IMG/VR virus record: IMGVR_UViG_2865859272_000007
Location: 15,399-79,398 of that record
Length of the DNA: 64,000 nt
Strand: one strand, 5' to 3'
Source of the DNA: a virus
Lineage: Duplodnaviria; Caudoviricetes
Position numbers and translations under genes: made by a program. The notes beneath the pieces were generated by a model. The model made no database searches. It saw only the letters and a list, made by a program, of their open reading frames with translations, and had not been told where the DNA came from. Shown here piece after piece: positions 41,601 to 60,771 of this stretch (positions are counted from its first letter, which is position 1; every line of letters starts with the position of its first letter).

Positions 41601-43815
41601 GGGGAATCCCGGCTCCGTCTCGGCGTGGTCTGGCCTCGCGGCCCAGGCCCTCGCTAGGGCCGGCCTCGCCCCTGGCCAGCTTCCCCGGTTCCTCGCCCTG
41701 ATGGCTGCGGAGTCCGGCGGTAACCCGAACGCGATCAACAACTGGGACATCAACGCCCGCAACGGCGTCCCGTCCCAGGGCTTGATGCAGGTGATTCCGC
41801 CGACGTTCGCCGCCTATCGGGACCCTTCCCTGTCTAATAACATCTTGGATCCCCTCGCCAACATGACCGCGGCTGCCCGCTACATCAGGTCGCGGTACGG
41901 CGGCCAGGTGCCCGGTTCTCCGTACGCCAACGGGACTCCGGGTGCGACCAGGGGGCCGCATCTCGTGGGTGAGAACGGTCCCGAGATGGTGAACTTCCGG
42001 GGCGGGGAGACGGTGATGTCCGCCGTCGATACCCGAAGGGCTCTTGGCAGCACGCGCGTCGGGGGAGGTGCGGCGGCTGGGGGTTCGGGCAGTATCGAGG
42101 ATCTCCTCGCGATGTTCCCGGAGATCCAGAAGCACGTCGAAGACCTTGTGCCGCAGTGGCACGAGGCGATGCGTGCACGCACGGCCGAGACCTGGGCCGC
42201 GATGTCGGCGCAGCAGATCACGTCCTGGGAGGGGATGAAGGCATCCGTCTTCTTCCCGTTCCGCGATGAGATGACCGTGCAGATGCCTCTCCACCTGGAG
42301 GCCATGCGTCTGGCCAACTTCACCAAGTGGACCCAGATGGGCGCCGACAGCCTGGCCCAGTGGGAGCTGATGCGCACCGGGGTGTTCGTGCCGGCCATGG
42401 ATCACATGACGGTGCAGATGCCGACGTGGGCTGCGCAGATGCAGGCGGCTGTCTCGGCGGCCTTCGCCGGCATGCTGGAGTCCGTCCAGGGCTCTTGGGC
42501 CGGCATGCAGGAGGCCACCCGCGGGCCGGTCAACTGGATCATCAGCAACAGCTACGGCAACGGCATCCGCCGGCTGTGGAACGAGGTCGCCGCGGTCATC
42601 TTCGACGGCGGTGGGCGCACGCTCCCGGCCGTGTCCACCCTCGCCACGGGTGGCCGGGTCGCCGGGCGCGGCACACGCACCTCTGACTCCAACCTCGCTC
42701 TTCTCTCCCGAGGGGAGCATGTGTGGAGCGCCAGGGAGGTTGCCGCGGCGGGTGGCCACCATGCAGTCGAGGCGCTTCGTGCCCGTGCTCGTGGCGGGCA
42801 TCTGCCGGGCCTCGCGCTCGGCGGCTGGCTCACGAACGCCGGCGCGGTCTCGGGCAGCAGTCCGGCCGGCGTCCCGGTCAGCACCCCGCTGGTCCGGGGC
42901 TGGCTCGGCGACGACGTCATTCCGGTCCTGGAGAACATCGACGCCGCGGCCCGGAACGCCTTGGGCGGCTCCGCCTTCCGGCGCCTGGCCGCTCTCGGAG
43001 ACGTCCTTCGACCGGTCGACTGGATGAAGCAGTACATCGAGCTCGACGACGAGCTGAACCGGGTGTTCATCGGCACGGGCCCTCCGTGGGTTCCGGGCGT
43101 CTCCGATGTCCGGACCAGCTGGGGCGGCGTGGCGGTGAACCAGCGTACGGCGCAGATGCTGAACATGGCTCTCGCGCTCGGCGCCAGTTTCAGCGCGACG
43201 CAGGGCTCGTGGAGCACCAGCGTTGCGGCGTCGGCCGGCACGCATGCCGGCGGCGGTGTCGTGGACCTGGTCCCGGCGAACAACACCAACGTCGCCGCGC
43301 TGCGGGCGGTCGGGTTCGCTGCATGGAACCGCGGTGCGGCGTGGGGCTCCCCCTCGTTCGCCCCGCACATCCATGCGGTCGCGATCGGCGACCCGACGGC
43401 ATCCCCTGCGGCCCAGGCCCAGGTGGCGTCGTTCTTCGCCGGCGGCAACGGCTTGGCCAACGGCGGCCCGGACAACTTCGCCGGCGGGCTCTCGTTCGCT
43501 GGTCTGGCCAGCGGCGAGAAGCCGACCGGCCAGTTGCTGGCGCTGATCGAGCAGATGCGCGGGCCTGGCACGCCGGTCGATCCGGCGGACATCGACCAGT
43601 TCCGTCCGATCTCGTTCGACAGCGGGGGCATGCTGGAGCCGGGCTACACCCTGGCCTACAACGGCACCGGCAAGCCGGAACCCGTTGGTGAAACGGGCAA
43701 GGAGGTGCACATCCACATCCACGGAAATGTGTACACGAAATCGGCTGCCGAGTTCGAGGACATGCTCGCTGGTGCGATGCAGAACCTCAAGCGTAAGAAC
43801 CGCTTGCCGCGATGA
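38605..43815 (+). CDS. Tape measure protein with SLT transglycosylase and M15-like peptidase domains
   Basis: 1736 aa; Trp-periodic repeats; ESGGNPNAIN..GLMQ at about 41700; SAGTH.GGG..D and HIH at about 43230-43380. Confidence 0.93.
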   Translation: MPVTNLGFNIVSAYNGRGVRQAQRDIRSLNSQIIRVSNITQGVSTIGIGALRGVAVATAPALLTLTRAATSSVASITAMGVAAGSVGGIFAGAMTGAIKRTIEMRDSTGALRGEVDKAKAALDKEKAALAGLKPGSQAYKNQLDRIKEAQAAVTEAQNEYNASLKRMTPSQNAFLKSLDLTTTAWNKFIVATQDKTLTVASQTLTGVAGAIGKMKPVVDAIFPAVQRVSQAFQKWATGSGMDRFIQVLLDRGVPALDALLRAGRSVMTVLGAGFRAFAPLGASMANSIMRGAAAMAAWAQDGGFLRFIERVRQDAPQVREFLRALRDGLSQLLQAIRELGPLALGLSTALLRIIASTPIPVLQAIILSYTAWKTALLGLIVVKGLFIGVMGLARAAVFAYSLAQILLTGSTRLLGASTMALSVQLLVMQARMLIIAAATKVWAAAQWLLNIAMRANPIILIVSLIATLVAGIIWVATQTRFFQTVWSAVWNTVKAVADFIWSALQFGFRAMVTFFVIVWQTVSGALVAAWNVVWNLMRVAAQVVWTVLQAAWNVFINTLLTIWNAVSTALAAAWNAVWNGIRVAAQAIWTVLQAAWNIFINTLLTIWNVVSTALVTAWNFVWNVISTAAQGIWTILQAAWNVFINTLLTIWNTVSAALRAAWDLVWTGIQTAAETVWNFLTAAWETFTNTLQSIWDGFKDGFMSAIEAVWKSIRSTAESVWRSIGEVIEGAINGIIGIINRIIGAWNRITGAVGLDSLNIPTIPTVSINFAYGGIVGEAPGFAKGGTVAMHRRGGVLPGYSPGRDTVPAMLSRGEGVLVPEAVRGLGPNFVHWANRHFSRGRAGKNVAYPGYAVGGIAGIEAWQRVGGDVGWAFLQGGGVVTGDDDTPRPNIGQGAFFSSDPNRRERSPSFGGVAGIGSPEAPEGPISGFVTNVLGFLGEAAIRAAFSFATRLLDGFSMAGNFGKILVAGTKKILNAMIDDLIRRDSEAKAEFESMAVAGNPGSVSAWSGLAAQALARAGLAPGQLPRFLALMAAESGGNPNAINNWDINARNGVPSQGLMQVIPPTFAAYRDPSLSNNILDPLANMTAAARYIRSRYGGQVPGSPYANGTPGATRGPHLVGENGPEMVNFRGGETVMSAVDTRRALGSTRVGGGAAAGGSGSIEDLLAMFPEIQKHVEDLVPQWHEAMRARTAETWAAMSAQQITSWEGMKASVFFPFRDEMTVQMPLHLEAMRLANFTKWTQMGADSLAQWELMRTGVFVPAMDHMTVQMPTWAAQMQAAVSAAFAGMLESVQGSWAGMQEATRGPVNWIISNSYGNGIRRLWNEVAAVIFDGGGRTLPAVSTLATGGRVAGRGTRTSDSNLALLSRGEHVWSAREVAAAGGHHAVEALRARARGGHLPGLALGGWLTNAGAVSGSSPAGVPVSTPLVRGWLGDDVIPVLENIDAAARNALGGSAFRRLAALGDVLRPVDWMKQYIELDDELNRVFIGTGPPWVPGVSDVRTSWGGVAVNQRTAQMLNMALALGASFSATQGSWSTSVAASAGTHAGGGVVDLVPANNTNVAALRAVGFAAWNRGAAWGSPSFAPHIHAVAIGDPTASPAAQAQVASFFAGGNGLANGGPDNFAGGLSFAGLASGEKPTGQLLALIEQMRGPGTPVDPADIDQFRPISFDSGGMLEPGYTLAYNGTGKPEPVGETGKEVHIHIHGNVYTKSAAEFEDMLAGAMQNLKRKNRLPR
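40234..40629 (+). repeat. Three 132-bp tandem repeats in the tape measure gene
   Basis: RTCTGGACC...TGGAAC..CTTCATCAACACGCT at 40234, 40366, 40498. Confidence 0.85.
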
Positions 43816-46956: not shown

Positions 46957-47274
46957 ATGCATTTGATCACAGGCAGGGCTCGGGCACGTATGTACTGGGG
47001 CAACTGGATCGCCGATTGTCCCGGCAACTGCGGGTGCGCCCTGCGGCTCAAGCCGGCTCAGGCGTCGTTCCCTTGCCCGGAGTGCAAGCTCATCAGCGAG
47101 GTGGAGTGGCCGAGTAACGCCGACGAGATCTACCAGGTTCTGCTGAAGCGGCCGGCGCCGAGGAATCGGAACTGGTTCCCGGCCGGGCACGAGCTGGCCC
47201 TGCGTGCGGGCTGCCCGCACGGGCAGTCCGTAGCCGACCTGGAGGCGGAGACCGCAGAGCACATGGAGGGGTGA
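46957..47274 (+). CDS. Small Cys-rich tail-associated protein
   Basis: CPGNCGC, CPEC and CPHGQ motifs. Confidence 0.75.
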   Translation: MHLITGRARARMYWGNWIADCPGNCGCALRLKPAQASFPCPECKLISEVEWPSNADEIYQVLLKRPAPRNRNWFPAGHELALRAGCPHGQSVADLEAETAEHMEG

Positions 47275-47278
47275 CCCG

Positions 47279-47815: not shown

Positions 47816-47828
47816 GGGGTGAGTCCTC

Positions 47829-48365: not shown

Positions 48366-48373
48366 GGTGACAC

Positions 48374-48940
48374 GTGGCCTGGACGACCCCCATGACCGCC
48401 GTCGCTAACGCGACCATCACGGCGGCCGAGTGGAACACCCACGTTCGCGACAACCTGCTGGAGACCGAGCCTGCGAAGGCGGACGCTACGGATGTCTATC
48501 TGGTGTCGACAGGCGCGAACGTCCTGGCGAAGCGTGCGAGCGCCGGCGACCACATCGAGGCGCAGCAGGCCACGACCAGCACCAGCTACACGGACCTGTC
48601 GACGGCCGGCCCGGCGGTAACGGTGACCACTGGCACGAAGGCCATCGTGTGGATCTCTTGCGCCATGAACCAGACCGTTACGGACGCCCTCATGGCGGCC
48701 TCGTTCGCAGTCTCCGGCGCCACCGCGGTGTCCGCCAGCGACGACTGGGCGGTCATGACAAGCGGCGTCACCCGGAACCCGAACATGACGGGCAATCCTC
48801 GCGATAACCACAATCGGCGGGGTGTCGCCCGCATGGTGACGGGGCTCAACGCGGGATCCAACACCTTCACCATGAAGTACCGGGTCGGTTCTGGGACGGG
48901 CCACTTCCACAACCGGGAGATTGATGTTCTCCCTCTCTGA
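48374..48940 (+). CDS. Short tail fibre/RBP-like paralog 3 of 7
   Basis: GTG start with GAGGTG RBS; same motifs. Confidence 0.85.
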   Translation: MAWTTPMTAVANATITAAEWNTHVRDNLLETEPAKADATDVYLVSTGANVLAKRASAGDHIEAQQATTSTSYTDLSTAGPAVTVTTGTKAIVWISCAMNQTVTDALMAASFAVSGATAVSASDDWAVMTSGVTRNPNMTGNPRDNHNRRGVARMVTGLNAGSNTFTMKYRVGSGTGHFHNREIDVLPL

Positions 48941-48960
48941 TTTGAGGGAGGTTGAAGCTG

Positions 48961-49503
48961 TTGGCTTGGTCTGCTCCCATCACCGCGGTTTCCGGAGAGT
49001 TGCTGACTGCCGCTGAGTACAACGCGTCAGTACGGGACAATCTTGCCGAATGCGCTCCCAACATCGCAACGCAAGAGGGGTCCATATTTCAGGCATCTGC
49101 TCCGAATCGGATTGTTGAGAGGCAGGTTGTCTCGCACCGCGTACCCGAAGAGGATTCGATCCCGACACAGCAGACGAGCTACGTCGAGATCCGCAATGCT
49201 GGTCCGTTCGTGACGGCAGTCACCGGGGCGAGCGCGCTGGTTTTCGTGACCTGCGAGATGGCGGGGAACACGAATACGCAGTGCTCGGCGAGCTTCGAGG
49301 TCTCGGGGTCGACGAGGATCTCCGCCTCGGACAAGTGGCGGGTCGTTCATGACGCGATGGAGAAGGATCACTTCAGCCGCTATTCGGTAGCGCGACGAGT
49401 CGAGCTGAATCCCGGGTCGAATACGTTCCGCATGAAATATCGGACCGGTGGCCTTGGGCCTTTCCGGTTCAGGAATCGCGAGATCGTCGTCATACCGCTG
49501 TAG
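48961..49503 (+). CDS. Short tail fibre/RBP-like paralog 4 of 7
   Basis: TTG start (MAWSAPITAV) 9 nt after GGAGG; same motifs. Confidence 0.85.
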   Translation: MAWSAPITAVSGELLTAAEYNASVRDNLAECAPNIATQEGSIFQASAPNRIVERQVVSHRVPEEDSIPTQQTSYVEIRNAGPFVTAVTGASALVFVTCEMAGNTNTQCSASFEVSGSTRISASDKWRVVHDAMEKDHFSRYSVARRVELNPGSNTFRMKYRTGGLGPFRFRNREIVVIPL

Positions 49504-49511
49504 GAGGTCTC

Positions 49512-50045
49512 ATGGCTTGGACAGCGCCCATGACGGCGGTCGCAAATACCGCCTTCACCGCCGCCCAGTTCAATACGCACGTTCGCGACAACCTGTTGGA
49601 GACCGCTCCGGCGAAGGCCACGTCCGGGGGTGGTCGTTTCTTCGCCAGCAGCGACACGAACACCATCGTCGAGCGCAGGATCCATCAGGCCCAGGTGCTG
49701 ACGTCGCAGTCGACGTCCAGTACGTCGTACACGAACCTGTCCACGTCCGGCCCGACCGTAACGCTCACCACCGGCACCCATGCGCTGGTGATCGTGTCGG
49801 CGCAGTTCAGCAACAATACGTCGGACAACTCGTGCTTCATGAGTCATGAAGTGTCGGGGGCGACTTCGATTTCCCCGAATGACGACCGCTCTCTCAGGCT
49901 GCAAGGAACCCTTAACTACCAGGGGTCCCACGCGTTCCTTTGGACGACGCTCAATGCCGGGTCGAACACATTCCAGGCTAAGTATCGAGTATTCAGCGGC
50001 ACCGGTACCTGGCTGAACCGCCGCATTACGGTTATGGCGTTCTGA
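49512..50045 (+). CDS. Short tail fibre/RBP-like paralog 5 of 7
   Basis: RBS AGGAGG; same motifs. Confidence 0.85.
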   Translation: MAWTAPMTAVANTAFTAAQFNTHVRDNLLETAPAKATSGGGRFFASSDTNTIVERRIHQAQVLTSQSTSSTSYTNLSTSGPTVTLTTGTHALVIVSAQFSNNTSDNSCFMSHEVSGATSISPNDDRSLRLQGTLNYQGSHAFLWTTLNAGSNTFQAKYRVFSGTGTWLNRRITVMAF

Positions 50046-50581
50046 TGGCTTGGACTGCACCGAAGACATGGGTCGCCGAGCAGGTTCTCACCGCCGCCGA
50101 ACTCAACACACACCTCCGTGACAACCTGCTGGAGACAGCTCCCGCCAAGGCCACCACCGAGGGTTCTTACTTCGTGGTGAGCGACCTGAATCAGATCGCC
50201 GAGAGGAAGCCCGAGGTAGCTCGCGTCTCGGCCGGCGAGTCCACGAGTTCCACTTCCTACGTGGATCTGGCCACGACAGGGCCGGAGGTCACGGTGACGA
50301 CCGGGTCCAGCGCGATTGTGCTGATCTACTCGCAGTTGCGGAACACCGTCGAGGACTCGGGGTCGATGATGTCTTTCGCGATATCCGGGGCAACGTCCCG
50401 CAGTGCGCTGGACACCACCGCGATTCTGCACCGAGGCAACGCGAATCAATCGCAGCGCTTCTCCGCGTTCGACATGATCACCGACCTGACTCCCGGCTCC
50501 AATACCTTCACCGCGAAGTACAGAGTGACCGCCGATACCGGGACCTTTGGGGATCGGATGATCGCGGTTTTTGCGCTCTGA
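50045..50581 (+). CDS. Short tail fibre/RBP-like paralog 6 of 7
   Basis: TGATG coupling; same motifs. Confidence 0.85.
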   Translation: MAWTAPKTWVAEQVLTAAELNTHLRDNLLETAPAKATTEGSYFVVSDLNQIAERKPEVARVSAGESTSSTSYVDLATTGPEVTVTTGSSAIVLIYSQLRNTVEDSGSMMSFAISGATSRSALDTTAILHRGNANQSQRFSAFDMITDLTPGSNTFTAKYRVTADTGTFGDRMIAVFAL

Positions 50582-50593
50582 AAGGGGGAGGCG

Positions 50594-51145
50594 ATGGCGT
50601 GGACCGCGCCGACCACCTTTGTCGACGGTCAGGTGCTCACCGCCGCACAGCTCAATACGTATCTGCGTGACAACCTGATGGCCACGGAAACGGCTGTAGC
50701 CAGAACCCCGGGCAGCTTTCTGGTCGCGAGGGCGCTTTCGCAGATCGTTGAGCGCAAGCCGGTCATTTCGCGGGTGGCCGCGGCCGAAACGACCGAGAGC
50801 TTCCAGTTCACCGACCTGAACACACCGGGCCCGCAGGTGACCGTAGAGACAGGCCCGTCGGCGATCGTTTTCCTCTACTGCGGCTCCAATAGCGATACCC
50901 CCGGAATCGCGTCAACCATGGCGTACGAGATCGAGGGACGAAACAGAGTCACGACAGGCTCCGTTCCGACAGGCGCCGTCGAGTTCCGCACCTCCGGAGG
51001 GGCAGGCTTCACGCGGCACGGCGGAGCCGTATCGATGATGAATGACCTCACTCCCGGCGAGAACACCTTCACCGCCAAATACAAGACCAGCGGTTCGGGG
51101 ACCAGTACCTTCCGTGACCGCGTGATGATCGTGTTCCCGCTGTAA
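50594..51145 (+). CDS. Short tail fibre/RBP-like paralog 7 of 7
   Basis: RBS GGGAGG; same motifs. Confidence 0.85.
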   Translation: MAWTAPTTFVDGQVLTAAQLNTYLRDNLMATETAVARTPGSFLVARALSQIVERKPVISRVAAAETTESFQFTDLNTPGPQVTVETGPSAIVFLYCGSNSDTPGIASTMAYEIEGRNRVTTGSVPTGAVEFRTSGGAGFTRHGGAVSMMNDLTPGENTFTAKYKTSGSGTSTFRDRVMIVFPL

Positions 51146-51158
51146 CGGGAGGTTGGCC

Positions 51159-51353
51159 ATGAACAACGAGGTGGAAGTCGCCTCCCGACTGGCCCGTATC
51201 GAAGCCCGGCTGGACGAGCTGGTGCGACTGAATCAGAGTCGCGGCGAAGACCACGAACAGCGCATCAGGACGCTCGAAAGATGGCGCTACGCCATTCCAC
51301 CCACCGTCGTCGCGGCGGTCATCTCCGCCCTTGTGGCCATATTCGGAAAGTGA
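51159..51353 (+). CDS. Small coiled-coil plus single-TM lysis-region protein
   Basis: RLARIEARLD, DHEQRIRTLERW, C-terminal hydrophobic helix. Confidence 0.75.
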   Translation: MNNEVEVASRLARIEARLDELVRLNQSRGEDHEQRIRTLERWRYAIPPTVVAAVISALVAIFGK

Positions 51354-51359
51354 GAGCCG

Positions 51360-53321
51360 GTGAACCTCTTCACCCAAAAGCAGGTAGAAGATCTCTGTGT
51401 CCACGTCGGTTTCTCCCGCTCGGATGCCCGCATCGCTTCTGCTATCGCGATGGTCGAGGCTCCGGCCGAAGGCAGGCCCGGCTTCTGCGACGCCGACGCC
51501 GTCGGAGACCAGGAGCTGGCCAACTCCACGTGGGGCTACAGCTACGGCTTCTTCCAGATCCGCTCCCTGCGGGCCCACAAGGGCACCGGCCAGTACCGGG
51601 ACGAGGACCGCCTCCGCAATCCCGACTTCGCATGCCGGTCGGCGCTGCACATCTTCCAGAACGCAGGCGGGGGTACGTTCAACGACTGGACGACCTACCG
51701 GACCGGTCAGTACAAGGCATACCTCCAGGACGAGTTTCCGCCCGACCCCGGCACGTATGTCGTCGTCTCCGGCGACACCCTCACCAAGATCGGCCTCAAG
51801 GTCGGTGTCGAGTGGCAGGAGATCGCCCGCCTGAACAACCTGCACCACCCGTACACCATCAACATCGGCCAGGTGCTCCGGCTCCCCGACGGCGCGGGAC
51901 TGCCTCCTGAGCCGGTGCAGTACACCGTCGCCGCCGGCGACACCCTGTGGGCGATCGGGAAGCGCTTCGGCATCCCGTGGGAGCACATCGCCCGAGCCAA
52001 CGGCATCGTCGGGCCGTACGTCATCCACCCCGGAGACGTTCTCGACATTCCCGGAACCCAGGGCGACCCTGCCCCCGAGCCCGAGCCTGAGCCCGAGCCT
52101 GAGCCCGTCGAGATCAACCTGTCGAACCTGACCTTCAACGCCCGCAACGACGACGTCGCCCTGCTCCAGCAGGCCCTCACAGATGCCGGCCACGACCCCG
52201 GCCCCGTCGACGGCTGGTACTACAACATGACCCGGGCCGCGATCAGGGCCTTCGAGGAAGCGGAGGGCCTGATCGCCGATGGGCTTGCCGACCGCGCGGT
52301 GTGCGAACGACTGGGCTTCGCCGTCACCGGCGAGGACCCCCCTGTTCCTCCGCCGAGCTCGGGCGCGGTGTCGGCCGACAGCATCCGGGCCGCGGCCACC
52401 GGCGGCACCCGCATATCCGGCACCTACTCGCACAGCAGCATGGCCAACCCGGTGTCTGTGTACCGCAAGGGCGACGCCGTCTACTTCCACGCCGGCATGA
52501 CCATCGACTGCGACGGCCGGCCCGGCTCCATCTGCAACAGCACCACCGACCCGTGGTTCCAGCCGCAGACCGCTTGGCAGCAGTCCGACGGCCGGCACCT
52601 GGACGCCGCGGACCTGCCGTTCATCGTGATCCCGCTCGCGTCGTCGACCTGGGACTACCGGCAGCACGGTATCGGCGGCGGGGATTTGTGCGTCGTCGCT
52701 TACCGGGACCGCTTTTTGTATGCGGTCGTCGGCGACCTCGGACCCACGTACCGGATCGGCGAGGCGTCCAACGCCTGTGCCCGCGCCCTCGGCATCAACG
52801 GCGACCCGCGTGTCGGCGGCACCGGCAGCGGCGTGACGTACGTGGTGTTCCCCGGCGTGAAGGTCCGGCCCATCGAGTCGAAGGCCGAGGCGTCCCGCCT
52901 GGGCGCCCAGAAGCTGACCGAGTGGCTGGGGATCGGGACGTCGCCGGCGCCGTCCTTCGAGGGTGAGGTGCTGCGCCTCACGAATGTCGAGCGGCAGGCC
53001 GGCGGGCTCCGGCCGCTGTCCGCTGATACGCGACTGGACCGCGCCGCGGAGAAGCATTCCGCCCGCATGTCCGACGGCCTGGGCCTGGTCCACAGCGATC
53101 TGGCGGCAGCGCTTCGAGCGGAGGGCGTCAGCTTCCGGTCCGCGGCCGAGAACATCGCTGTCGGATACCGCACCCCGCAGGCCGTGGTCGCTGCGTGGAT
53201 GAACTCGCCTGGTCACCGCGACAACATCATGAGCCCCGGCCTCACGCACCTGGGCGTCGGCCACGTACAGGCGTCGGACGGCCAGCACTGGTGGACCCAG
53301 ATGTTCGCCTCCATGGCATGA
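51360..53321 (+). CDS. Multidomain hydrolase: SLT-like, 2 LysM, PG-binding, GH75 chitosanase-like, CAP domain
   Basis: AIAMVE..YGFFQI; GDTL LysM twice; IDCDG, LDA..LPFIV, GDLGP..GEAS (GH75); VLRLTN.ER, AENIA.G, WMNSPGHR.NI (CAP). Confidence 0.88.
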   Translation: MNLFTQKQVEDLCVHVGFSRSDARIASAIAMVEAPAEGRPGFCDADAVGDQELANSTWGYSYGFFQIRSLRAHKGTGQYRDEDRLRNPDFACRSALHIFQNAGGGTFNDWTTYRTGQYKAYLQDEFPPDPGTYVVVSGDTLTKIGLKVGVEWQEIARLNNLHHPYTINIGQVLRLPDGAGLPPEPVQYTVAAGDTLWAIGKRFGIPWEHIARANGIVGPYVIHPGDVLDIPGTQGDPAPEPEPEPEPEPVEINLSNLTFNARNDDVALLQQALTDAGHDPGPVDGWYYNMTRAAIRAFEEAEGLIADGLADRAVCERLGFAVTGEDPPVPPPSSGAVSADSIRAAATGGTRISGTYSHSSMANPVSVYRKGDAVYFHAGMTIDCDGRPGSICNSTTDPWFQPQTAWQQSDGRHLDAADLPFIVIPLASSTWDYRQHGIGGGDLCVVAYRDRFLYAVVGDLGPTYRIGEASNACARALGINGDPRVGGTGSGVTYVVFPGVKVRPIESKAEASRLGAQKLTEWLGIGTSPAPSFEGEVLRLTNVERQAGGLRPLSADTRLDRAAEKHSARMSDGLGLVHSDLAAALRAEGVSFRSAAENIAVGYRTPQAVVAAWMNSPGHRDNIMSPGLTHLGVGHVQASDGQHWWTQMFASMA

Positions 53322-53355
53322 CACGCGAAGACAACTGAATAGCTGGAGGCTCGAA

Positions 53356-54981
53356 TTGGCCACGCAAGCAGAACTGGACCGGGCCGCAGCATGGGCGCGC
53401 GCCCAGGTCGGTAAGCCGTATGTGCTCGGGTCGTTCGGGTCGTCGTTCGACTGCTCGACTTATATGTCCGGCATCGCAACGATGATCCGCGACGGTGTCG
53501 CGAAGCGGTGGTTCACCACCCACCCGTTCCACTCGGGTGCCCGTTTTCCGCTCGCCGGCTGGGAGCGCGACCTCCAGGCCCCGTTCATGATCGGCATCAC
53601 GGCCGATGGGATCGGCCACACCGGCGGCACCCTGCTGGGCGTCAACTACGAAGCAACCGCCGCCGATGGCCGCCGGGTTCGCATGGGCCCCACGGCCCGC
53701 GGGGCTTTCCACTCGATGTACGAGCTCCGCTACGGCTTCCGCCCCTCGCTTCTCGAAGGGGCGCCGCTGCCTCCGGGAGGGGGAGAGAACGTGACCACCT
53801 ACACGATCAAGCCCGGCGACACCCTCTACGGAATCGGCGAGCGGTTCGAGGTCGACTGGCGCGACATCGCCGAAGCCAACAACATCGACTCGCCCTACAT
53901 CATTCACCCCGGCCGCGACCTGGAGATACCGGGCGCCGACAACCGGCCTGTGGTCCGCCTCTCCAACCTGACCTTCAACGCCCGCAACGACGACGTCCGC
54001 GTCCGTCAGGAGGCGTTGAACGCCAAGGGGTACAACGCGGGCCCGGTCGACGGCTGGTACTACAACATGACCAAGGCGGCCGTGCAGCGGTTCCAGGAGG
54101 CCCAGGGCTGGACCGGTCCTGACGCTGACGGCATGGTCGGCCTGGAAACGGTTGCCCGCCTCGGGCTGCGCGTGGAGGGCGGCAGCGTCCCCACCCCGGC
54201 GCCGGCACCGCCGCCGGCCCCGTCGCCGAAGACGGTGAACCTGGCGAACCTCGCCTTCAACGCCCGCAACGACGACGTCAAGATCGTCCAGCAGGCGCTG
54301 AAGGACAAGGGCTACGACCCGGGTGTCGTCGACGGCTGGTACTACAACATGACCCGCGGTGCGGTGCGTGCGTTCCAGGAGGCCCAGGGCTGGGACGGCG
54401 ACGACGCTGACGGCATGGTCGGCCCCGAGACGGCCCGCCGGCTCGGCCTCAACCCCGTCGGCACCCCGCCGGTCGCCCCCGCTCCGACGCCCGTCCCATC
54501 GCCTTCGGGTTGGCGTGCGGCTTCGGAGCCGACGCACGACTACACGCGGGTGTCATGGGGCGGCAAGACGGTCAACCGCCGCACTGCGATCATGCTGGAC
54601 CGGGCCATCGCGATTCTCCGCGCGGAGGGTGGCCCCACCTTCAGTTACCTCACGCAGGGCTCTTACAACCGAGGCGTCTCGGCTTCTGCCGGCACGCATG
54701 ACGGCGGCGGTGTCGTAGATATCCCGTCGTCCAGCAGTGCGGTTGCTCTGGCGCTGCGCAAGGCAGGCTTCTTCGCCTGGGTGCGCACTCCGGCGCAGGG
54801 CTTCTCCTACCACATCCACGCGGTGGCGATCGGTGACCGGGAGCTGTCGTCCTCCGCTCGTGGCCAGGTCACGCAGGGCTTCCAGGACCGCAACGGCTTG
54901 GCCGGCCGCGGGCCTGACCCGGACCCGGATCCCTACCCGGACTGGACGAAGCGGTACGGCACACACGTGAGCCCGGACTGA
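53356..54981 (+). CDS. Multidomain endolysin: NlpC/P60-like, LysM, 2 PG-binding, M15-like peptidase
   Basis: GKPYV..FDCS..HTG; LysM; two copies of NARNDDV..DGWYYNMT; TQGSY..SAGTHDGGG.VD, HIH. Confidence 0.85.
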   Translation: MATQAELDRAAAWARAQVGKPYVLGSFGSSFDCSTYMSGIATMIRDGVAKRWFTTHPFHSGARFPLAGWERDLQAPFMIGITADGIGHTGGTLLGVNYEATAADGRRVRMGPTARGAFHSMYELRYGFRPSLLEGAPLPPGGGENVTTYTIKPGDTLYGIGERFEVDWRDIAEANNIDSPYIIHPGRDLEIPGADNRPVVRLSNLTFNARNDDVRVRQEALNAKGYNAGPVDGWYYNMTKAAVQRFQEAQGWTGPDADGMVGLETVARLGLRVEGGSVPTPAPAPPPAPSPKTVNLANLAFNARNDDVKIVQQALKDKGYDPGVVDGWYYNMTRGAVRAFQEAQGWDGDDADGMVGPETARRLGLNPVGTPPVAPAPTPVPSPSGWRAASEPTHDYTRVSWGGKTVNRRTAIMLDRAIAILRAEGGPTFSYLTQGSYNRGVSASAGTHDGGGVVDIPSSSSAVALALRKAGFFAWVRTPAQGFSYHIHAVAIGDRELSSSARGQVTQGFQDRNGLAGRGPDPDPDPYPDWTKRYGTHVSPD

Positions 54982-55718
54982 TGACCGCGATCCGGGATGT
55001 GCAGATCGCCCTCCTGGCGGCCGAGGCCGGCATCCCGGACGAGGAGCTGGCCACGGCCGTGGCGATCTGCCTGGGCGAATCCTCCGGTCAGCCTCGCGCC
55101 TACAACGGGCACGGAGGCGACCACAGTTTCGGGCTCTGGCAGATCAACATGCGGGGACGGATGGGCCCTGCTCGCCGCGCCCAGTACGGCATCTCGTCGA
55201 ACGAAGCCCTCTTCGATCCGGTGGTCAACGCCAAGGCCATGGCGCGCCTGTCCTCGGGCGGCCGGAACTGGAAGCCGTGGGGCGCCTACACCAAGGGCGG
55301 CTACCGCAACAAGGGCCGCCTAGAGCGGGCGGAGGAGGCCGTACACCGGCTGCGCTCCGGCGAGGCGGTCGAGCCACCGATCGAAGCGCCGGCATGGCAT
55401 CCGACGGTCAACGCCGCACACATCTACCCGGGAGGCCGCGGCCATTCGGTGTACGTCTTGCAGCGCGCCCTGGCCGCGATGTTCCCCGACTACCGAGTCC
55501 TGAGCTACCCCGACCGGCGGGGTGTGATGGACGAGGAGTCCGTGGCCTTCCTGAACCGGTGGATGGCCTCCGGGCCCGGCGGATCGTGGCCGGCGACCGG
55601 CTACGCGAACCTCGACACGCTCTCGCGGCTGGGCTACAAGGTGCCGCCGTCGCTGGAGTTCAAGGCGACCTGTGACCACGTTGACGCCGATGAGATGCAC
55701 TTCTACGGAGGCTCCTGA
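54981..55718 (+). CDS. SLT-like transglycosylase with a PG-binding-like C-terminus
   Basis: AICLGESSG, SFGLWQIN, LFDPVVNA, WKPWGAY. Confidence 0.85.
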   Translation: MTAIRDVQIALLAAEAGIPDEELATAVAICLGESSGQPRAYNGHGGDHSFGLWQINMRGRMGPARRAQYGISSNEALFDPVVNAKAMARLSSGGRNWKPWGAYTKGGYRNKGRLERAEEAVHRLRSGEAVEPPIEAPAWHPTVNAAHIYPGGRGHSVYVLQRALAAMFPDYRVLSYPDRRGVMDEESVAFLNRWMASGPGGSWPATGYANLDTLSRLGYKVPPSLEFKATCDHVDADEMHFYGGS

Positions 55719-55719
55719 A

Positions 55720-56997
55720 GTGGCAGTAACGGTTCTGCATCTGCACTGCGACCCGGCAGGCCGGGCGGTGCTTCACCTTCATTCGGACACCTACTTCAAA
55801 GCCCAGACGGTGGGCGTCGCCGTGCGTAGCAGCACCGGGCAGAACCTCGACTACCCGGGGAACGTGTCGAGCGTCAACGTCGGCCCCGACGGCTACATCT
55901 ACATATCGGACCCCCGCACCCCGTTGCCGAACGGCACGTATACGGTGTTCGGCTTCTACCGCCTGGGCGGCGTCTGGCACAACCTTCCCTCGCAGCAGCT
56001 CGTGGTGCCGCCACCGCCGCCCGCGGAGGGCACCTATGTGGTGCAGCGCGGCGACACGCTGTGGGGGATCGGCCAGCAGCTCGGCGTGCCGTGGGAGGAC
56101 ATCGCCGCCACGAACGGCATCGAGGAGCCGTACACGATCTACCCGGGTCAAGTCCTCGTCATCCCCGACAGCCAACCGGCACCCGACCCCGAGCCTGACC
56201 CGGATCCTCCACCGCCGGACCCCGAACCCGATCCTGAGCCGGGCGGGGACACGACTACGGTTCCGGGCAAGATGGTCGTCTTCTCCGGGGACAACTTCCT
56301 GGACGGCGGCAAGTGGAACATCGGCCGCAGCTCCGCCTACCCCGGCGGCGGACCCGGACAGACCAACTACGGCGACAACAAAGCTGATTACATCCATCCG
56401 ACCAACGCTCCCAGCCTCGTCCACGACGCGGACCTGGGCAGGCTGGTGTGGCGCTTCCGTGCGACCAGGAGGGGGCCGGACGCCTGGGATACGCCGCTGG
56501 CGACGACCGAGTACGTCCCGGGCGGCGGCGGGTTCGAGATCCGGCCCGGCGACACCATGACCGCCAAGCTGAAGCTTCCCGCTGAGCGGGGAGCGTGGCC
56601 CGCGTATTGGACGTGGGGCCGCGACAACCCTCCCGGGTATGGCGGGGTGCAGCCGGGGCACGGCGAAGTCGACATGTTCGAGTACCACCCGAACAATCCG
56701 GATCTGCTGGAGCTCAGCAACCGGGTCAGCGGCGGCGGCCACTACTACCGGAACAGTCAGGTGGTGCAGCCCGGACGCTGGATCGACATGCGCGTGGATT
56801 TCGGCACGGACGGCGTCGTCTGGCGCATCGACGGCCAGCACGTCTTCACCGCCAACGGGCTACCGAGCTACTGGCGAGCCTGGCCGATTGTGAACCTGTC
56901 GATTGTCTCGGCCGCGAACCCCTGGCATCCCGAACCGCTGTCGAGCGTCAACACGATCGACTTCTACGTAGCCGATTTCAAGGTGTGGCGCCCGTGA
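55720..56997 (+). CDS. LysM-containing GH16 glycoside hydrolase
   Basis: LysM YVVQRGDTLW; GAWPAYW and catalytic EVDMFE (ExDxxE). Confidence 0.85.
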   Translation: MAVTVLHLHCDPAGRAVLHLHSDTYFKAQTVGVAVRSSTGQNLDYPGNVSSVNVGPDGYIYISDPRTPLPNGTYTVFGFYRLGGVWHNLPSQQLVVPPPPPAEGTYVVQRGDTLWGIGQQLGVPWEDIAATNGIEEPYTIYPGQVLVIPDSQPAPDPEPDPDPPPPDPEPDPEPGGDTTTVPGKMVVFSGDNFLDGGKWNIGRSSAYPGGGPGQTNYGDNKADYIHPTNAPSLVHDADLGRLVWRFRATRRGPDAWDTPLATTEYVPGGGGFEIRPGDTMTAKLKLPAERGAWPAYWTWGRDNPPGYGGVQPGHGEVDMFEYHPNNPDLLELSNRVSGGGHYYRNSQVVQPGRWIDMRVDFGTDGVVWRIDGQHVFTANGLPSYWRAWPIVNLSIVSAANPWHPEPLSSVNTIDFYVADFKVWRP

Positions 56998-57012
56998 ACA
57001 GGAAGGCGAGTC

Positions 57013-57375
57013 ATGTCTGAAGGCAAGTTCCGGCGGGCCACGCACGTGGTCTCCTCGGGTGAGAACCTCGTAGAGATCGGCGCCATGTACGGGGTGTCGT
57101 GGCGCGACATGGCGGTGGACAACGAGCTCGACAACCGGGACCTGATCCACCCCGGGCAGGTGCTCAAGCTGCCCTACTGCGAGTACACGGTTGTCGAGGG
57201 CGACACCCTCACGGGCATTCACGAGGCGTATGTCGCGAAGCGTGCGGCGGGATGCCCGGGATGCCATGACGCTGGCCCGTACGGGGCTTCCCTGCGCGAC
57301 GTTGCGCGGTACAACCAGATCGACAACCCTGACCTGATTCACCCCGGGCAGGTTGTCAAGCTGCCCTTGCGGTGA
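57013..57375 (+). CDS. LysM-only protein (two LysM)
   Basis: HVVSSGENL..LIHPGQVLKLP; YTVVEGDTL..LIHPGQVVKLP. Confidence 0.85.
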   Translation: MSEGKFRRATHVVSSGENLVEIGAMYGVSWRDMAVDNELDNRDLIHPGQVLKLPYCEYTVVEGDTLTGIHEAYVAKRAAGCPGCHDAGPYGASLRDVARYNQIDNPDLIHPGQVVKLPLR

Positions 57376-57381
57376 TCGGGC

Positions 57382-57771
57382 ATGGGACGCGCGTCTTCCC
57401 CCGTGCCCGGCTACAAGGTCACCTACCCGTACGGGGTGCGTAACGCCCGCTACGCGGCTGGCTTCCACACTGGCCACGACTACGCCGCCCCTACCGGCAC
57501 CCCGGTGGTCGCCGTTCGCGATGGCGTCATCGCCTGGTCGAACAGCGGCGGAGGGGCGTACGGCCAGTGGATAGGGCTGCGTGCCGACAACGGCCGCGAT
57601 TACGTCTACTGCCACTTGTCCGCCCGGAGCGTCCGCACTGGCCAGAGGGTCAAGGCCGGCCAGAGGCTTGGCGCGGTGGGTGCCACTGGCAGGGTTACGG
57701 GCCCGCATCTGCATTTTGAAGATCGTCCGCGTGGCGGTGGCTACGGCAACGTCCGCAGGCCCTCTTGGTGA
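57382..57771 (+). CDS. M23 family peptidase (catalytic domain only)
   Basis: HTGHD, GTPVVAV.DG, YCHL, TGPHLHFE. Confidence 0.92.
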   Translation: MGRASSPVPGYKVTYPYGVRNARYAAGFHTGHDYAAPTGTPVVAVRDGVIAWSNSGGGAYGQWIGLRADNGRDYVYCHLSARSVRTGQRVKAGQRLGAVGATGRVTGPHLHFEDRPRGGGYGNVRRPSW

Positions 57772-57781
57772 AGGAGAAACG

Positions 57782-57997
57782 ATGAAGGATTCCACACGGA
57801 GGACCGTGCGTACGGTCTTCCAGAACGCTGTCGCTGTGGCGGCCGGTATGCCGCTCCTGCTGGACGCTGCCGGCATCGATGAGACGGTGCCCGGTGTTGC
57901 CGTCGTTCTCGGTGTGTCGGCCGCGGTGACGCGCCTGATGGCGCTGCCGCTCGTCGACTCCCTTCTCCCCGCGTTCCTCCGCAAGGGCGACGCCTGA
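57782..57997 (+). CDS. Holin
   Basis: RRTVRTVFQ followed by hydrophobic helices and VTRLMALP; last gene of the lysis module. Confidence 0.75.
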   Translation: MKDSTRRTVRTVFQNAVAVAAGMPLLLDAAGIDETVPGVAVVLGVSAAVTRLMALPLVDSLLPAFLRKGDA

Positions 57998-58046
57998 CCT
58001 GGAGGTGATCCCCGGTCTCGCGCCGGGTAGCGCCCGGCAAAACTGT

Positions 58047-58091
58047 GCCCCCACCCCCTCCGCTCCGGCGGTCGGGGTGGGGGCCTTTTTT
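58047..58091 (+). terminator. Intrinsic terminator of the late operon
   Basis: GCCCCCACCCC/GGGGTGGGGGC stem followed by TTTTTT. Confidence 0.85.
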
Positions 58092-58104
58092 GCGTTCGGG
58101 TCCG

Positions 58105-58524
58105 CTACCGGAGCCCTTCTGGGCAGGGATGCTCGGGCCTCCAGAAGTTCGGGCAGGCAATGAGGTGGATGGCGTAGAAGGTGGAGCCGCCGTTCCCCCA
58201 CCAGCCGCCGACGACGTCGCGTTCCATCTCCAGGGCTTCGCGGGCCGCGGCCAGCCGGGAGTCGAGCACACCGGGTTCCTTGATGTGCTTCTCGTCGAAG
58301 CGGTCGAGGTGCTGCCGAACAGTTGCCGAGTACCACTCCAGAGCCGGGCCCGTGTCCTTGAACGTGCCCTTGATCATCTTCCTTGGCTTGAGGAGCCAGT
58401 TAGCAGGCTCGATGGGAGCCACAGAGGTCGACCCGAATCCTGTGCCCAGCGGGCGTCTCTGCGAGTCGTTGCCGTACTCGGATCCGGAGCCGACCCACAC
58501 GTATCCGTGGTGGTGAACTGCCAT
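58105..58524 (-). CDS. Hypothetical Streptomyces-type protein
   Basis: RBS GAAGG; protein-like ORF with C-terminal CPN..P.HPCP. Confidence 0.7.
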   Translation of the reverse strand: MAVHHHGYVWVGSGSEYGNDSQRRPLGTGFGSTSVAPIEPANWLLKPRKMIKGTFKDTGPALEWYSATVRQHLDRFDEKHIKEPGVLDSRLAAAREALEMERDVVGGWWGNGGSTFYAIHLIACPNFWRPEHPCPEGLR

Positions 58525-59457: not shown

Positions 59458-60660
59458 TCAGACGGGAACTCTCACCGCCTGGGCCAGTAGCCGCATCTCG
59501 GGTGTCAAGGTTCGACGGCGGTCCAGGAGTCGGGTGACGACGTCCCTGGCGTATCGCTGGTTCGGTAGCCACTGGGGGGCGGTCTGGTGGATCTCCATCA
59601 GCTTGCCCACGGCTTCGCCGTACTGCCGCATGGCGACATGAGCGTGCGCGACGTCGAGCTGATGCCGGTTCCTGTTGCTGCGCGAAGGCCGAACCCCGGT
59701 ATGAGAAACCACCTGCTTGGCCAGCTCCAGCACCTTGTCCGGCCGCTGCTGAATCGACGCGTTCTCCGCGCGCTTCATCAAAACAGTGGTCGGCCCATAC
59801 GTGCGCGTGATCTCGGACGCCGGCTTGCACTCGCGGCCGAGCAGCTCAGCCGCCACATGGGCGAAGCGCATGGCGTCCTCGGCCTCTCCGGGCCGGTTGT
59901 CGCGCACAGACGCGTTCGAGACACGCAGCAGCATCCATCCCCAAGCGCAGAGCTCGTCGGGCGTCGCGCGGGTAACACGCCGGGGTTCCATCTCGTCGGC
60001 CCAGTGGATCGCCAGATCGCGCGCCTGCCCCAGCTTCCCTTGACGCAGCAGTAGCCAGCACCGGTTGTTGATGCTGACCGAAATCTCCAGGCGGTCGATG
60101 GCGTCGTCCATAGCCCGGTCGATGGCGAGGTCTGCCACCTCGAACTGGCGTGTCTGGGTGAGCAGCCAGCCGGTGAGTTGCAGGACGCGGACGCGGACGG
60201 CCCGGCCTTCCGGCCCCAGGGCGTCCGCGTCCCTGACGATGCTCGGCATGATCCTGGACAGCGCGTCGAGGTCCAGTCTCTTGAAGAGGGGCTCGACGTC
60301 CTGGAGGGCGGCGGTCACTCCGTCCACGGTCGGCGGCTGCTCCAAGCCATCGGCCAACCTGGGCGGGTGCTCCAGGGCTTTGCGGACGGCATTCCACTGG
60401 TCCGCCGTGGGCTGGTGGGCGGTCTCGCGGTCTCCTTCGTCTCCGAGGAGCTTCGTGGTCGGGACACGGAGAACCCTGGCCAGGCTGTGGAGCGTCTCGG
60501 CCCGGGTCTCCCCGGCACGTTCCTGTTCAAGGAGCCGGATGGTGGCGATCGACACCGGCTTGCAGTCGTGTGTCTCCTTGGTCAGGCGTGCCAACTCTGC
60601 CTGTGTAAGCCCTCGCAGCTTGCGCATGTCGCGCAGCCGGCTACCAATCGTGGCGCTCAT
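59458..60660 (-). CDS. XRE-family HTH regulator with a large helical (TPR-like) C-terminal domain
   Basis: IGSRLRDMRKLRGLTQAELA, TIRLLEQ, LARVLRV; long Ala/Leu helical region; TACCCT 7 nt before the ATG suggests a leaderless mRNA. Confidence 0.88.
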   Translation of the reverse strand: MSATIGSRLRDMRKLRGLTQAELARLTKETHDCKPVSIATIRLLEQERAGETRAETLHSLARVLRVPTTKLLGDEGDRETAHQPTADQWNAVRKALEHPPRLADGLEQPPTVDGVTAALQDVEPLFKRLDLDALSRIMPSIVRDADALGPEGRAVRVRVLQLTGWLLTQTRQFEVADLAIDRAMDDAIDRLEISVSINNRCWLLLRQGKLGQARDLAIHWADEMEPRRVTRATPDELCAWGWMLLRVSNASVRDNRPGEAEDAMRFAHVAAELLGRECKPASEITRTYGPTTVLMKRAENASIQQRPDKVLELAKQVVSHTGVRPSRSNRNRHQLDVAHAHVAMRQYGEAVGKLMEIHQTAPQWLPNQRYARDVVTRLLDRRRTLTPEMRLLAQAVRVPV

Positions 60661-60771
60661 GCAAGCCAGGGTAGGCGGCGATGCGGTTGGCTCGGCACTG
60701 CCAGACCAGCCCTGATATTGTGCCGGGTGTCGCTCCGGTGACGGCCCGCAGTACACGGACCGGGGCGCAAA

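What the first reader, a model, noticed from the sequence alone, without database searches (positions are those of the whole stretch)
51159..57997. Lysis module expanded into a six-gene wall- and glycan-degrading arsenal
About 6.8 kb encode two SLT-type glycosidases, an NlpC/P60-like domain, an M15-like peptidase, an M23 peptidase, a GH75 chitosanase-like domain, a GH16 domain, a CAP domain, six LysM domains and three or four PG-binding domains, plus a holin. None shows an obvious signal peptide. A typical siphovirus needs one endolysin. Streptomyces hyphae carry extra glycans (the CslA beta-glucan and MatAB poly-N-acetylglucosamine are established examples) and live alongside fungi. The set may dissolve the mycelial matrix for progeny escape, or release antifungal enzymes on induction as a benefit to the lysogen population (inference).
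Basis: partly seen in the sequence, partly recalled or inferred. Interest (0 to 1): 0.85.

Follow-up and report, generated by a model that had tools for sequence, protein, structure and literature searches.

The report
Six-gene lysis cassette in Streptomyces prophage
A Streptomyces prophage ends its late operon with six adjacent cell-wall-degrading genes plus a holin where related phages carry one or two, and two of the extra modules (a "chitosanase" GH75 and a glucanase-like GH16) suggest that enzymes now counted as soil-virus metabolic genes may really be lysis enzymes.

Summary
Window 51159-57997 (+) carries a 64-aa tail-anchored membrane ORF, six hydrolase genes and a 71-aa two-TM holin-like gene, closed by a strong terminator.
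- two SLT_3 domains with the catalytic Glu;
- an NlpC/P60-like Cys-His domain;
- a LAS/M15-like Zn peptidase;
- M23;
- GH75 with both catalytic residues of V-Csn;
- a GH16 fold with an intact ExDxxE motif;
- CAP, six LysM, and three PG_binding_1 plus a probable fourth.

None of the six has a hydrophobic N-terminus.

New here:
- Four kin phages with the same tandem-tail-gene module carry one lysin (three of them) or two (L014).
- The GH75 domain belongs to a well-supported clade of lysin fusions (GH75 with CHAP or M23 plus binding domains). This clade is separate from the genus's secreted chromosomal chitosanases. Such a fusion is the only lysin seen in the stretches read of three phage contigs.
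- The LysM-GH16 fusion is unique among 120 homologues.
- Binding modules were duplicated in place.
- gpE and gpF may be one split gene.

Best reading (0.6): an expanded holin-dependent lysis cassette acting on the host wall. The matrix-dissolving and antifungal ideas remain untested. Verdict: new variant of a known kind, interest 0.6.

The parts
51159..51353 (+). 64-aa ORF with an N-terminal coiled region and a C-terminal TM segment (tail-anchored). Candidate lysis-associated membrane protein that opens the cassette.
   Evidence: PHROG 5225 (unknown function), E 7.9e-11. Hydrophobic segment at residues 44-64. A 66-aa ORF sits in the same place before the lysin in L037.
51360..53321 (+). gpA, 653 aa. 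Domains by residue: SLT_3 (13-112), LysM (132-177 and 188-231), PG_binding_1 (262-318), GH75 (about 340-525, catalytic D459 and E468), CAP/YkwD (538-649).
   Evidence: Pfam. Alignment to V-Csn keeps D148 and E157. D and E are invariant in 51 GH75 domains. Catalytic Glu33 of SLT_3 is conserved. In the GH75 tree gpA groups with the lysin fusions at 100/99 support.
53356..54981 (+). gpB, 541 aa. Domains by residue: NlpC/P60-like Cys-His domain (1-135), LysM (149-192), two PG_binding_1 (205-270 and 304-363), LAS/M15-like Zn peptidase (about 390-520).
   Evidence: Pfam. Invariant FDCST and IGHTGG motifs. Atlas NlpC/P60 clusters. Zn-ligand motifs. Fold matches to VanX, ShhN, LdcB and MepA. Kin lysins in L014 and L015 share these domains.
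54981..55718 (+). gpC, 245 aa. SLT_3/SLT lytic-transglycosylase-like domain (12-112, with the GES catalytic Glu), then a probable divergent PG_binding_1-like C-terminal domain (about 130-225).
   Evidence: Pfam SLT_3 at 1e-19. Alignment. Atlas features score 0.90 and structure TM is about 0.5 to PG_binding_1 clusters (a lead only).
55720..56997 (+). gpD, 425 aa (alternative start 55672). N-terminal beta-sandwich domain (about 1-100), LysM, Pro/Asp-rich linker, GH16 domain (about 180-425) with E316-x-D318-x-x-E321.
   Evidence: GGAGG RBS before 55720. LysM. GH16 by profile, Foldseek and VIA. Invariant catalytic motif. AF2 mean pLDDT 85.
57013..57375 (+). gpE, 120 aa. Two LysM domains and no catalytic domain.
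   Evidence: Pfam LysM at 5.4e-21. The two copies are 81% identical at DNA level.
57382..57771 (+). gpF, 129 aa. M23 metallopeptidase domain alone. It is in frame with gpE, separated by TGA plus 6 nt, so this may be a fission of a LysM-M23 lysin.
   Evidence: Pfam M23 at 2.4e-28. Junction sequence. Closest homologues (73-79% identical) are 230-290-aa proteins that are longer than the M23 domain alone. In the two compared (P0004, P0322) M23 lies at the C-terminus behind a binding region.
57782..57997 (+). 71-aa holin-like protein with two hydrophobic segments. Last gene of the operon.
   Evidence: PHROG 4316, E 5.6e-20 (function unknown). Hydrophobic segments at about 16-32 and 38-58. RBS GAAGGAG upstream.
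58057..58092 (+). Intrinsic terminator that closes the late operon.
   Evidence: 12-pair stem (8 GC pairs) followed by a T run. No terminator-like site lies inside 51159-57997.
43108..43473 (+). Paralogue of the gpB LAS/M15-like peptidase domain, embedded in the tape measure protein (residues about 1502-1623). Presumed entry enzyme.
   Evidence: BLASTP gives 53% identity, E 2e-26. DNA match in the own genome.

Best explanation
This is an expanded, holin-dependent lysis cassette of a temperate siphovirus-like Streptomyces prophage.

Shown:
- Eight co-oriented, tightly packed genes follow the tail genes and end at one terminator.
- The six enzymes carry seven predicted catalytic domains with intact active-site residues, plus CAP and 9-10 wall-binding modules.
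- None has an export signal.
- A small two-TM protein closes the cassette.

Inferred mechanism:
- Late in the lytic cycle the enzymes accumulate in the cytoplasm.
- The holin opens the membrane.
- LysM and PG_binding modules dock the enzymes on the host sacculus.
- The wall is then cut at several bond types at once. The two SLT_3 domains, and probably GH75, cut glycan strands. The NlpC/P60-like, LAS/M15-like and M23 peptidases cut stem peptides and the LL-DAP-Gly bridges.
- The LysM-tethered GH16 domain removes a non-peptidoglycan wall or matrix glycan that is still unidentified.

Origin: the cassette grew by accretion and in-place duplication of modules from a pool that related phages use in one- or two-gene cassettes.
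For: - Gene order, spacing, RBSs, absence of hydrophobic N-termini, the holin-like ORF and the single terminator.
- Domain content and catalytic residues.
- Kin phages with the same tandem 180-aa tail array have fewer lysins. L015 has one (SLT_3, Cys peptidase, two PGB). L002 and L040 have one (GH75-LysM-M23). L014 has two, followed by an r1t-type holin.
- The GH75 of gpA lies in a 22-member lysin-fusion clade (support 100/99), apart from 24 secreted chromosomal GH75 proteins of the genus.
- In L037 and L003 the GH75-CHAP protein sits just before small ORFs at the end of the late genes.
- PGB and LysM modules are duplicated within the cassette at 63-81% DNA identity.
- The Streptomyces stem peptide carries LL-DAP(Gly), which fits the presence of an M23 peptidase (paper 10.1101/319178).
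Against: - No experiment exists. Holin function, timing and substrates are all inferred.
- GH75 and GH16 families have no member shown to cut peptidoglycan.
- The nearest characterised GH75 relative, V-Csn, is a chitosanase (PMC9485262).
- The closest phage homologues of the GH16 protein (P0048, P0049) lie outside lysis cassettes.
- LysM also binds chitin, so tethering does not prove a bacterial target.
- The gpB N-terminal domain occurs inside tape measure proteins of cultured Streptomyces phages, so an entry role for some members is possible.
- Redundant modules may simply be neutral accretions.
Confidence: 0.6

Rival explanations
1. Public-good or auxiliary enzymes. On this reading GH75 (chitosanase), GH16 (beta-1,3-glucanase-like) and perhaps CAP are not needed for lysis. 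They are released at induction to attack fungal walls or to free nutrients for surviving kin hyphae, with LysM acting as a chitin anchor.
For: - V-Csn, a soil-virus GH75, is an active chitosanase.
- The GH16 domain's best sequence and fold relatives are laminarinases.
- Phage homologues of the GH16 protein sit among early-type or other genes, not in lysis cassettes.
- Soil viromes carry many GH16 genes with low holin adjacency, 3 of 10.
- LysM binds chitin (PDB hits to Ecp6 and CEBiP).
Against: - There is no own promoter or terminator and no signal peptide, and the genes are coupled to late genes.
- gpA also carries PG_binding_1 and SLT_3.
- The GH75 clade is fused to CHAP or M23 and is the only lysin seen in the stretches read of three phage contigs.
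- It is separate from the secreted chromosomal chitosanases.
Confidence: 0.15
2. Some of the six are virion-associated entry enzymes rather than exit enzymes. They would be carried on the tail tip to pierce thick hyphal or spore walls.
For: - The genes directly follow the tail genes.
- The gpB N-terminal domain is embedded in tape measure proteins of Streptomyces phages such as Zuko, SF1, Rowa and JackieB.
- This phage's own tape measure protein holds a paralogue of the gpB LAS domain.
- LysM modules occur in baseplates.
Against: - No tail-attachment domain was detected.
- A membrane ORF separates them from the tail genes.
- Homologous proteins are the only candidate endolysins in the stretches read of the kin phage contigs.
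- The tape measure protein already supplies an entry hydrolase.
Confidence: 0.1
3. Neutral accretion with decay. Recombination among mosaic actinophage lysis cassettes piled up redundant modules. Only one or two genes matter, and the rest are on their way to loss, with the gpE/gpF split as a first sign.
For: - gpE and gpF are in frame, separated by one TGA, and homologues are fused.
- Modules are shuffled among kin.
- The array was not found in 60 related genomes. The pattern scan of 185,579 species genomes for the gpB N-terminal domain returned one locus, and that has a single lysin.
Against: - All catalytic residues are intact.
- Third-position GC is 0.79-0.89 across the ORFs, as in the other genes called in the window.
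- No frameshifts are present.
- The in-place duplications of binding modules have diverged yet remain open.
Confidence: 0.15

Closest known systems
Modular LysA-type endolysins of actinobacteriophages, including the 'split lysA' of Gordonia phages (PMC9671378), and the nine architectures described for 250 Streptomyces phage endolysins (PMC11705968)
   Same: Enzymes lack signal peptides and combine peptidase and glycosidase domains with LysM or PG-binding modules. They sit after the tail genes and next to small TM proteins. Distribution of lysin domains over adjacent genes is known.
   Different: - Six genes rather than one or two.
- Seven catalytic domains.
- The modules SLT_3, GH75, GH16 and CAP are not among the domain types listed for Streptomyces phages.
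- tblastn of the GH75 and GH16 domains finds nothing in 50,697 GenBank phage records.
V-Csn, soil viral GH75 chitosanase (PDB 7TVL; PMC9485262)
   Same: GH75 family. Both catalytic residues (D148 and E157) are conserved, with phmmer E 2.5e-12 over about 100 residues. Both are virus-encoded.
   Different: V-Csn was aligned here only as a 224-227-residue PDB chain and is interpreted as an auxiliary metabolic gene. The paper never mentions peptidoglycan or lysis. Here the domain is fused to SLT_3, LysM, PG_binding_1 and CAP inside a lysis cassette, and it belongs to a clade fused to CHAP or M23.
Secreted GH75 chitosanases of Streptomyces chromosomes
   Same: About 49% median identity to gpA's domain, with the same catalytic residues.
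   Different: Of the two whose full ORFs were read (L009, L011), both have signal peptides and no wall-binding modules. All 24 form a separate branch of the tree. The window's own genome has no other GH75.
GH16 laminarinases (for example 2VY0, 5WUT, 7WWC, 3DGT)
   Same: Beta-jelly-roll fold (Z 20-23) and the ExDxxE motif with the laminarinase-type extra residue.
   Different: Identity is only 12-23%. The score is below Pfam's GH16 cut-off. The protein has no signal peptide, a LysM inserted, and an unassigned N-terminal beta-sandwich. The substrate is unknown.
GH19 chitinase/endolysin ambiguity in soil viromes (bioRxiv 10.1101/2024.12.20.629349)
   Same: A 'chitin-type' CAZy family on phages that genomic context places in lysis cassettes.
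   Different: That work treats GH16 as having no lysis role and lists GH46/GH75 among plausible auxiliary functions. The present locus and its GH75 clade extend the ambiguity to those families.

Membership tests
GH75 (Pfam PF07335, CAZy GH75) | Sequence match above the curated cut-off | tested here: met
   59.4 bits against a cut-off of 27. 62.6 bits in the genome scan.
GH75 (Pfam PF07335, CAZy GH75) | Catalytic Asp/Glu pair (V-Csn D148 and E157) | tested here: met
   D459 and E468 of gpA align to them. Both are invariant in all 51 domains compared.
GH75 (Pfam PF07335, CAZy GH75) | Endo-chitosanase activity | not testable with these tools
   Needs enzyme assays. Context suggests a wall substrate instead.
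GH16 | Beta-jelly-roll fold of GH16 catalytic domains | tested here: met
   Foldseek E 3e-11, probability 1.00. VIA Z 22.9, rmsd 2.5 over 215 residues to 7WWC.
GH16 | Catalytic ExDx(x)E motif | tested here: met
   E316, D318 and E321 are invariant in 60 homologues and align to the GEIDIME motif of laminarinases.
GH16 | Pfam PF00722 above the gathering score | tested here: not met
   13.9 bits against 22. A family profile against PDB GH16 chains gives E 9e-12. This is therefore a divergent GH16-like subfamily.
NlpC/P60 (papain-like wall peptidases) | Conserved catalytic Cys and His in the family's motif positions | tested here: met
   Cys33 (FDCST) and His88 (IGHTGG) are invariant in 7 homologues.
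NlpC/P60 (papain-like wall peptidases) | Profile match or fold match | tested here: inconclusive
   No Pfam hit even at E 10. The AF2 model of this part has pLDDT below 50. Atlas feature search gives NlpC/P60-named clusters at 0.95. I call it NlpC/P60-like, not a member.
LAS / peptidase M15 (VanX, VanY, MepA, Hedgehog-type Zn peptidases) | Zn ligands His-x6-Asp and His-x-His | tested here: met
   H448, D455, H486 and H488 are at least 90% conserved in 67 sequences.
LAS / peptidase M15 (VanX, VanY, MepA, Hedgehog-type Zn peptidases) | Fold | tested here: met
   The model has pLDDT above 90 here. VIA gives Z 5.2-6.0 to ShhN, VanX, VanXYg, LdcB, MepA and VanYB over 93-116 residues. The Z values are modest but every match is from one superfamily. 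There is no Pfam hit.
Peptidase M23 | Profile above the cut-off, with HxxxD and HxH motifs | tested here: met
   98.6 bits against 28.7. The motifs HTGHD and HLH are read in the translation.
SLT-type lytic transglycosylase (SLT_3) | Profile above the cut-off and the catalytic Glu | tested here: met
   43.4 and 71.2 bits against 27. Glu is invariant in the alignment with the L015 lysin.
Canonical holin-endolysin cassette | Cytoplasmic lysins next to a small multi-TM protein at the end of the late operon | tested here: met
   No hydrophobic N-termini. A 71-aa two-TM ORF. A terminator follows.
Canonical holin-endolysin cassette | Holin-triggered release and lysis | not testable with these tools
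   Needs induction and expression experiments. PHROG 4316 has no assigned function.

The most novel reading that the evidence does not exclude
GH75 'viral chitosanases' include an undescribed class of actinophage endolysin catalytic domain. It would cleave the host's wall glycan, for example peptidoglycan strands carrying de-N-acetylated sugars such as the MurN reported in Streptomyces. The LysM-tethered GH16 enzyme would be a second new lysin type aimed at a Streptomyces wall or matrix glycan. If so, part of the carbohydrate 'auxiliary metabolic gene' signal in soil viromes is really lysis machinery.
Probability: 0.35. Interest if true: 0.75.

Novelty: new variant of a known kind. Interest (0 to 1): 0.6.

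Why it matters
- It gives a concrete, testable case for how a phage lyses a multicellular, thick-walled, matrix-embedded host.
- It is the largest lysin array seen among this phage's kin.
- It bears on a live question in soil virology: are virus-encoded chitosanases and beta-glucanases metabolic helpers or lysis enzymes? The GH75 clade fused to CHAP or M23 and binding modules, found here in several phage contigs, is direct genomic evidence for the lysis reading.
- It offers new enzyme modules for cell-wall biochemistry.

Tried and rejected
- DNA search of the region against GenBank phages gave only LysM or PGB-sized patches.
- tblastn of the GH75 and GH16 domains against those phages gave no match.
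- IMG/VR scans gave nothing for gpD and one kin for gpB. For GH75 they gave two loci that were not informative. One ORF is a 169-aa stand-alone protein and the other lies at a contig end.
- A profile of gpB homologues against PDB sequences found only PG-binding domains.
- The Foldseek and VIA lists for full-length gpB were filled by LysM and PGB. The N-terminal domain could not be modelled, so its fold remains unconfirmed.
- The N-terminal beta-sandwich of gpD was not identified, because the GH16 domain filled the VIA list.
- Cluster look-ups gave no names for the GH75 or GH16 homologues.
- DNA search of 60 related genomes found chromosomal GH75, GH16-like and M23 genes but no second copy of the array. 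One of those genomes, G057, is unpublished, and no claim here rests on it.
- A recoded reading of the gpE/gpF TGA was considered but not pursued, because an in-frame neighbour is expected by chance one time in three.
Full report
**Setting**

The window is contig C189:54512-118511 of a 6.98-Mb, 240-contig genome. Its relatives have 7-11-Mb genomes, and protein hits name Streptomyces.

The window holds a siphovirus-like prophage with these genes:
- PrimPol-helicase;
- tRNA-Met;
- portal and capsid;
- a 1736-aa tape measure protein;
- a 1010-aa tail protein;
- seven tandem paralogous genes of about 180 aa;
- the region in question;
- an XRE-type regulator;
- a tyrosine integrase at about 63068-63646.

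**Observation**

On the + strand, with high third-position GC, lie these genes:
- a 64-aa tail-anchored membrane ORF (51159-51353);
- gpA (51360-53321);
- gpB (53356-54981);
- gpC (54981-55718);
- gpD (55720-56997; an RBS favours this start over 55672);
- gpE (57013-57375);
- gpF (57382-57771);
- a 71-aa two-TM ORF (57782-57997).

Gaps between genes are 1-34 nt or overlaps. A 12-pair terminator follows at 58057. No terminator-like site lies inside the region, and the single weak promoter-like match over 46800-58400 is what shuffles give (mean 1.0).

Pfam confirms two SLT_3, six LysM, three PG_binding_1, GH75, CAP and M23.

Three named domains fall below Pfam thresholds or are absent from Pfam, so I tested them separately.

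- GH16 domain of gpD:
  - A profile of 60 homologues hits PDB laminarinases at E 9e-12.
  - The AF2 model has mean pLDDT 85.
  - It matches GH16 structures at Foldseek E 3e-11 and VIA Z 22.9 over 215 residues.
  - The E-x-D-x-x-E motif is invariant.
- C-terminal domain of gpB:
  - It is well modelled (pLDDT above 90).
  - It matches only LAS-type Zn peptidases (ShhN, VanX, VanXYg, LdcB, MepA) at Z 5.2-6.0.
  - It keeps the His-x6-Asp and His-x-His ligands.
- N-terminal domain of gpB:
  - It has invariant FDCST and IGHTGG motifs.
  - NlpC/P60-named Atlas clusters score 0.95.
  - Its model failed, so I call it NlpC/P60-like only.

Other checks:
- Both SLT_3 domains keep the catalytic Glu.
- GH75 keeps both catalytic residues of V-Csn.
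- The gpC C-terminus is probably a fourth PG-binding domain (a lead only).
- No enzyme has a hydrophobic N-terminal stretch.

**Comparison with kin**

The tandem 180-aa tail-gene array marks a phage lineage. Its members have smaller lysis cassettes built from the same modules.

| Locus | Source | Lysins |
|---|---|---|
| L015 | Streptomyces sp. NPDC002855 prophage | One: SLT_3, Cys peptidase, two PGB |
| L002, L040 | 73-75-kb contigs | One: GH75-LysM-M23, followed by small ORFs |
| L014 | IMG/VR, 51% GC | Two: Cys peptidase-LysM-PGB-SLT, and LysM-PGB-LAS peptidase; then an r1t-type holin |

L015 was the only locus returned by the pattern scan of 185,579 species genomes for the gpB N-terminal domain.

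Two other phage contigs put a GH75-CHAP protein at the end of the late genes. In L037 it is the only lysin seen. In L003 an Rpf-like-LysM-M23 protein lies two genes upstream.

So six genes here against one or two in relatives is a real expansion. Inside the cassette, PGB and LysM modules are 63-81% identical at DNA level, which indicates duplication in place.

gpE (two LysM) and gpF (M23 only) are in frame across a single TGA. In the two closest M23 relatives that I compared (P0004, P0322), M23 is at the C-terminus behind a binding region. The closest ones overall are 230-290-aa proteins. This pair may therefore be a split gene.

**The GH75 domain**

Homologues at 52-75% identity are mostly fusions with CHAP or M23 and with LysM or PG_binding. 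GH75 usually sits at the extreme N-terminus without a signal peptide.

In a maximum-likelihood tree, gpA and 21 such fusions form one group. Support is 100/99 on a branch of length 0.44. The 24 chromosomal GH75 proteins of the genus lie on a separate branch. The two whose full ORFs I read carry signal peptides. Catalytic residues are invariant in both groups.

This argues that the domain is a long-standing lysin module, not a recent capture of a host chitosanase. The V-Csn paper reads viral GH75 as an auxiliary chitosanase and never mentions peptidoglycan or lysis. A recent soil-virome survey still lists GH46/GH75 among plausible auxiliary functions.

What the lysin-type GH75 cuts is unknown. 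S. coelicolor peptidoglycan carries 5-8% MurN in vegetative hyphae (10.1101/319178), which makes a de-N-acetylated glycan a candidate. This is inference.

**The GH16 domain**

- Homologues at 41-58% identity are mostly Streptomyces and Kitasatospora chromosomal proteins of about 245 aa, named beta-glucanase.
- Only 7 of 120 have a hydrophobic N-terminus.
- A few secreted proteins share gpD's N-terminal beta-sandwich.
- The two closest phage homologues lie outside lysis cassettes.
- None of the 120 carries LysM, so the LysM-GH16 fusion in a lysis cassette is unique in this set.
- Fold similarity is equally high to laminarinases, lichenases, O-glycanases and porphyranases, so the substrate cannot be assigned.

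**Mechanism and rivals**

The best reading (0.6) is a holin-dependent cassette. Its enzymes are docked by LysM and PGB modules and cut the host wall at many bonds. GH75 is probably a glycan-strand or wall-glycan enzyme, and GH16 acts on an unidentified glycan.

The rivals are:
- auxiliary or public-good enzymes acting on fungal polymers (0.15);
- virion-associated entry enzymes (0.1), favoured by homologues embedded in tape measure proteins;
- neutral accretion with incipient decay (0.15).

**Novelty**

Split and modular endolysins are known (PMC9671378). The survey of 250 Streptomyces phage endolysins lists none of SLT_3, GH75, GH16 or CAP. GenBank phages lack these GH75 and GH16 domains. This is a new variant of a known kind, and it bears on the auxiliary-gene debate.

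Noticed in passing
window 47279-51145 (+): Seven tandem paralogous ORFs of about 180 aa, 40-57% identical, with an invariant N-terminal motif. The last one matches a PHROG minor tail protein. Kin phages have 4-10 copies (L002, L014, L015, L040). This looks like a variable receptor-binding or tail-tip gene array.
   Followed up: partly
window 43108-43473 (+), inside the tape measure gene 38605-43815: The tape measure protein carries a LAS/M15-like peptidase domain that is 53% identical to the C-terminal domain of gpB. The same enzyme type appears once for entry and once for exit.
   Followed up: partly
GenBank phages Zuko, KimJongPhill, SF1, Rowa, JackieB and others (hits H17-H31): The NlpC/P60-like domain of gpB is 44-49% identical to a segment inside the tape measure proteins of cultured Streptomyces phages. 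RefSeq copies of some records label that gene 'endolysin'.
   Followed up: no
P0062-P0167, for example L007:6001-6774: A widespread Streptomyces and Kitasatospora family of GH16-like 'beta-glucanases' of about 245 aa with an intact ExDxxE motif. Only 7 of 120 have a hydrophobic N-terminus. Their location and substrate are unclear.
   Followed up: partly
window 52971-53306 (+), C-terminus of gpA: A CAP/YkwD-type domain is fused to a lysin. Among the GH75 homologues found, only this protein has it. The nearest relatives are host CAP-TerD and sigma70-CAP proteins. Its role is unknown.
   Followed up: no
window 63068-63646 (-): A tyrosine integrase (PF00589, 52 bits) lies near the right end of the window and marks the prophage end. 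An XRE-type 432-aa regulator at 59458-60756 (-) lies between the lysis cassette and the integrase.
   Followed up: no
L002:8834-9991 and L040:7831-8991: In the 73-75-kb kin phages a 385-aa protein with a VldE-family Pfam hit sits between the tandem tail array and the GH75-LysM-M23 lysin. Its function is unknown.
   Followed up: no
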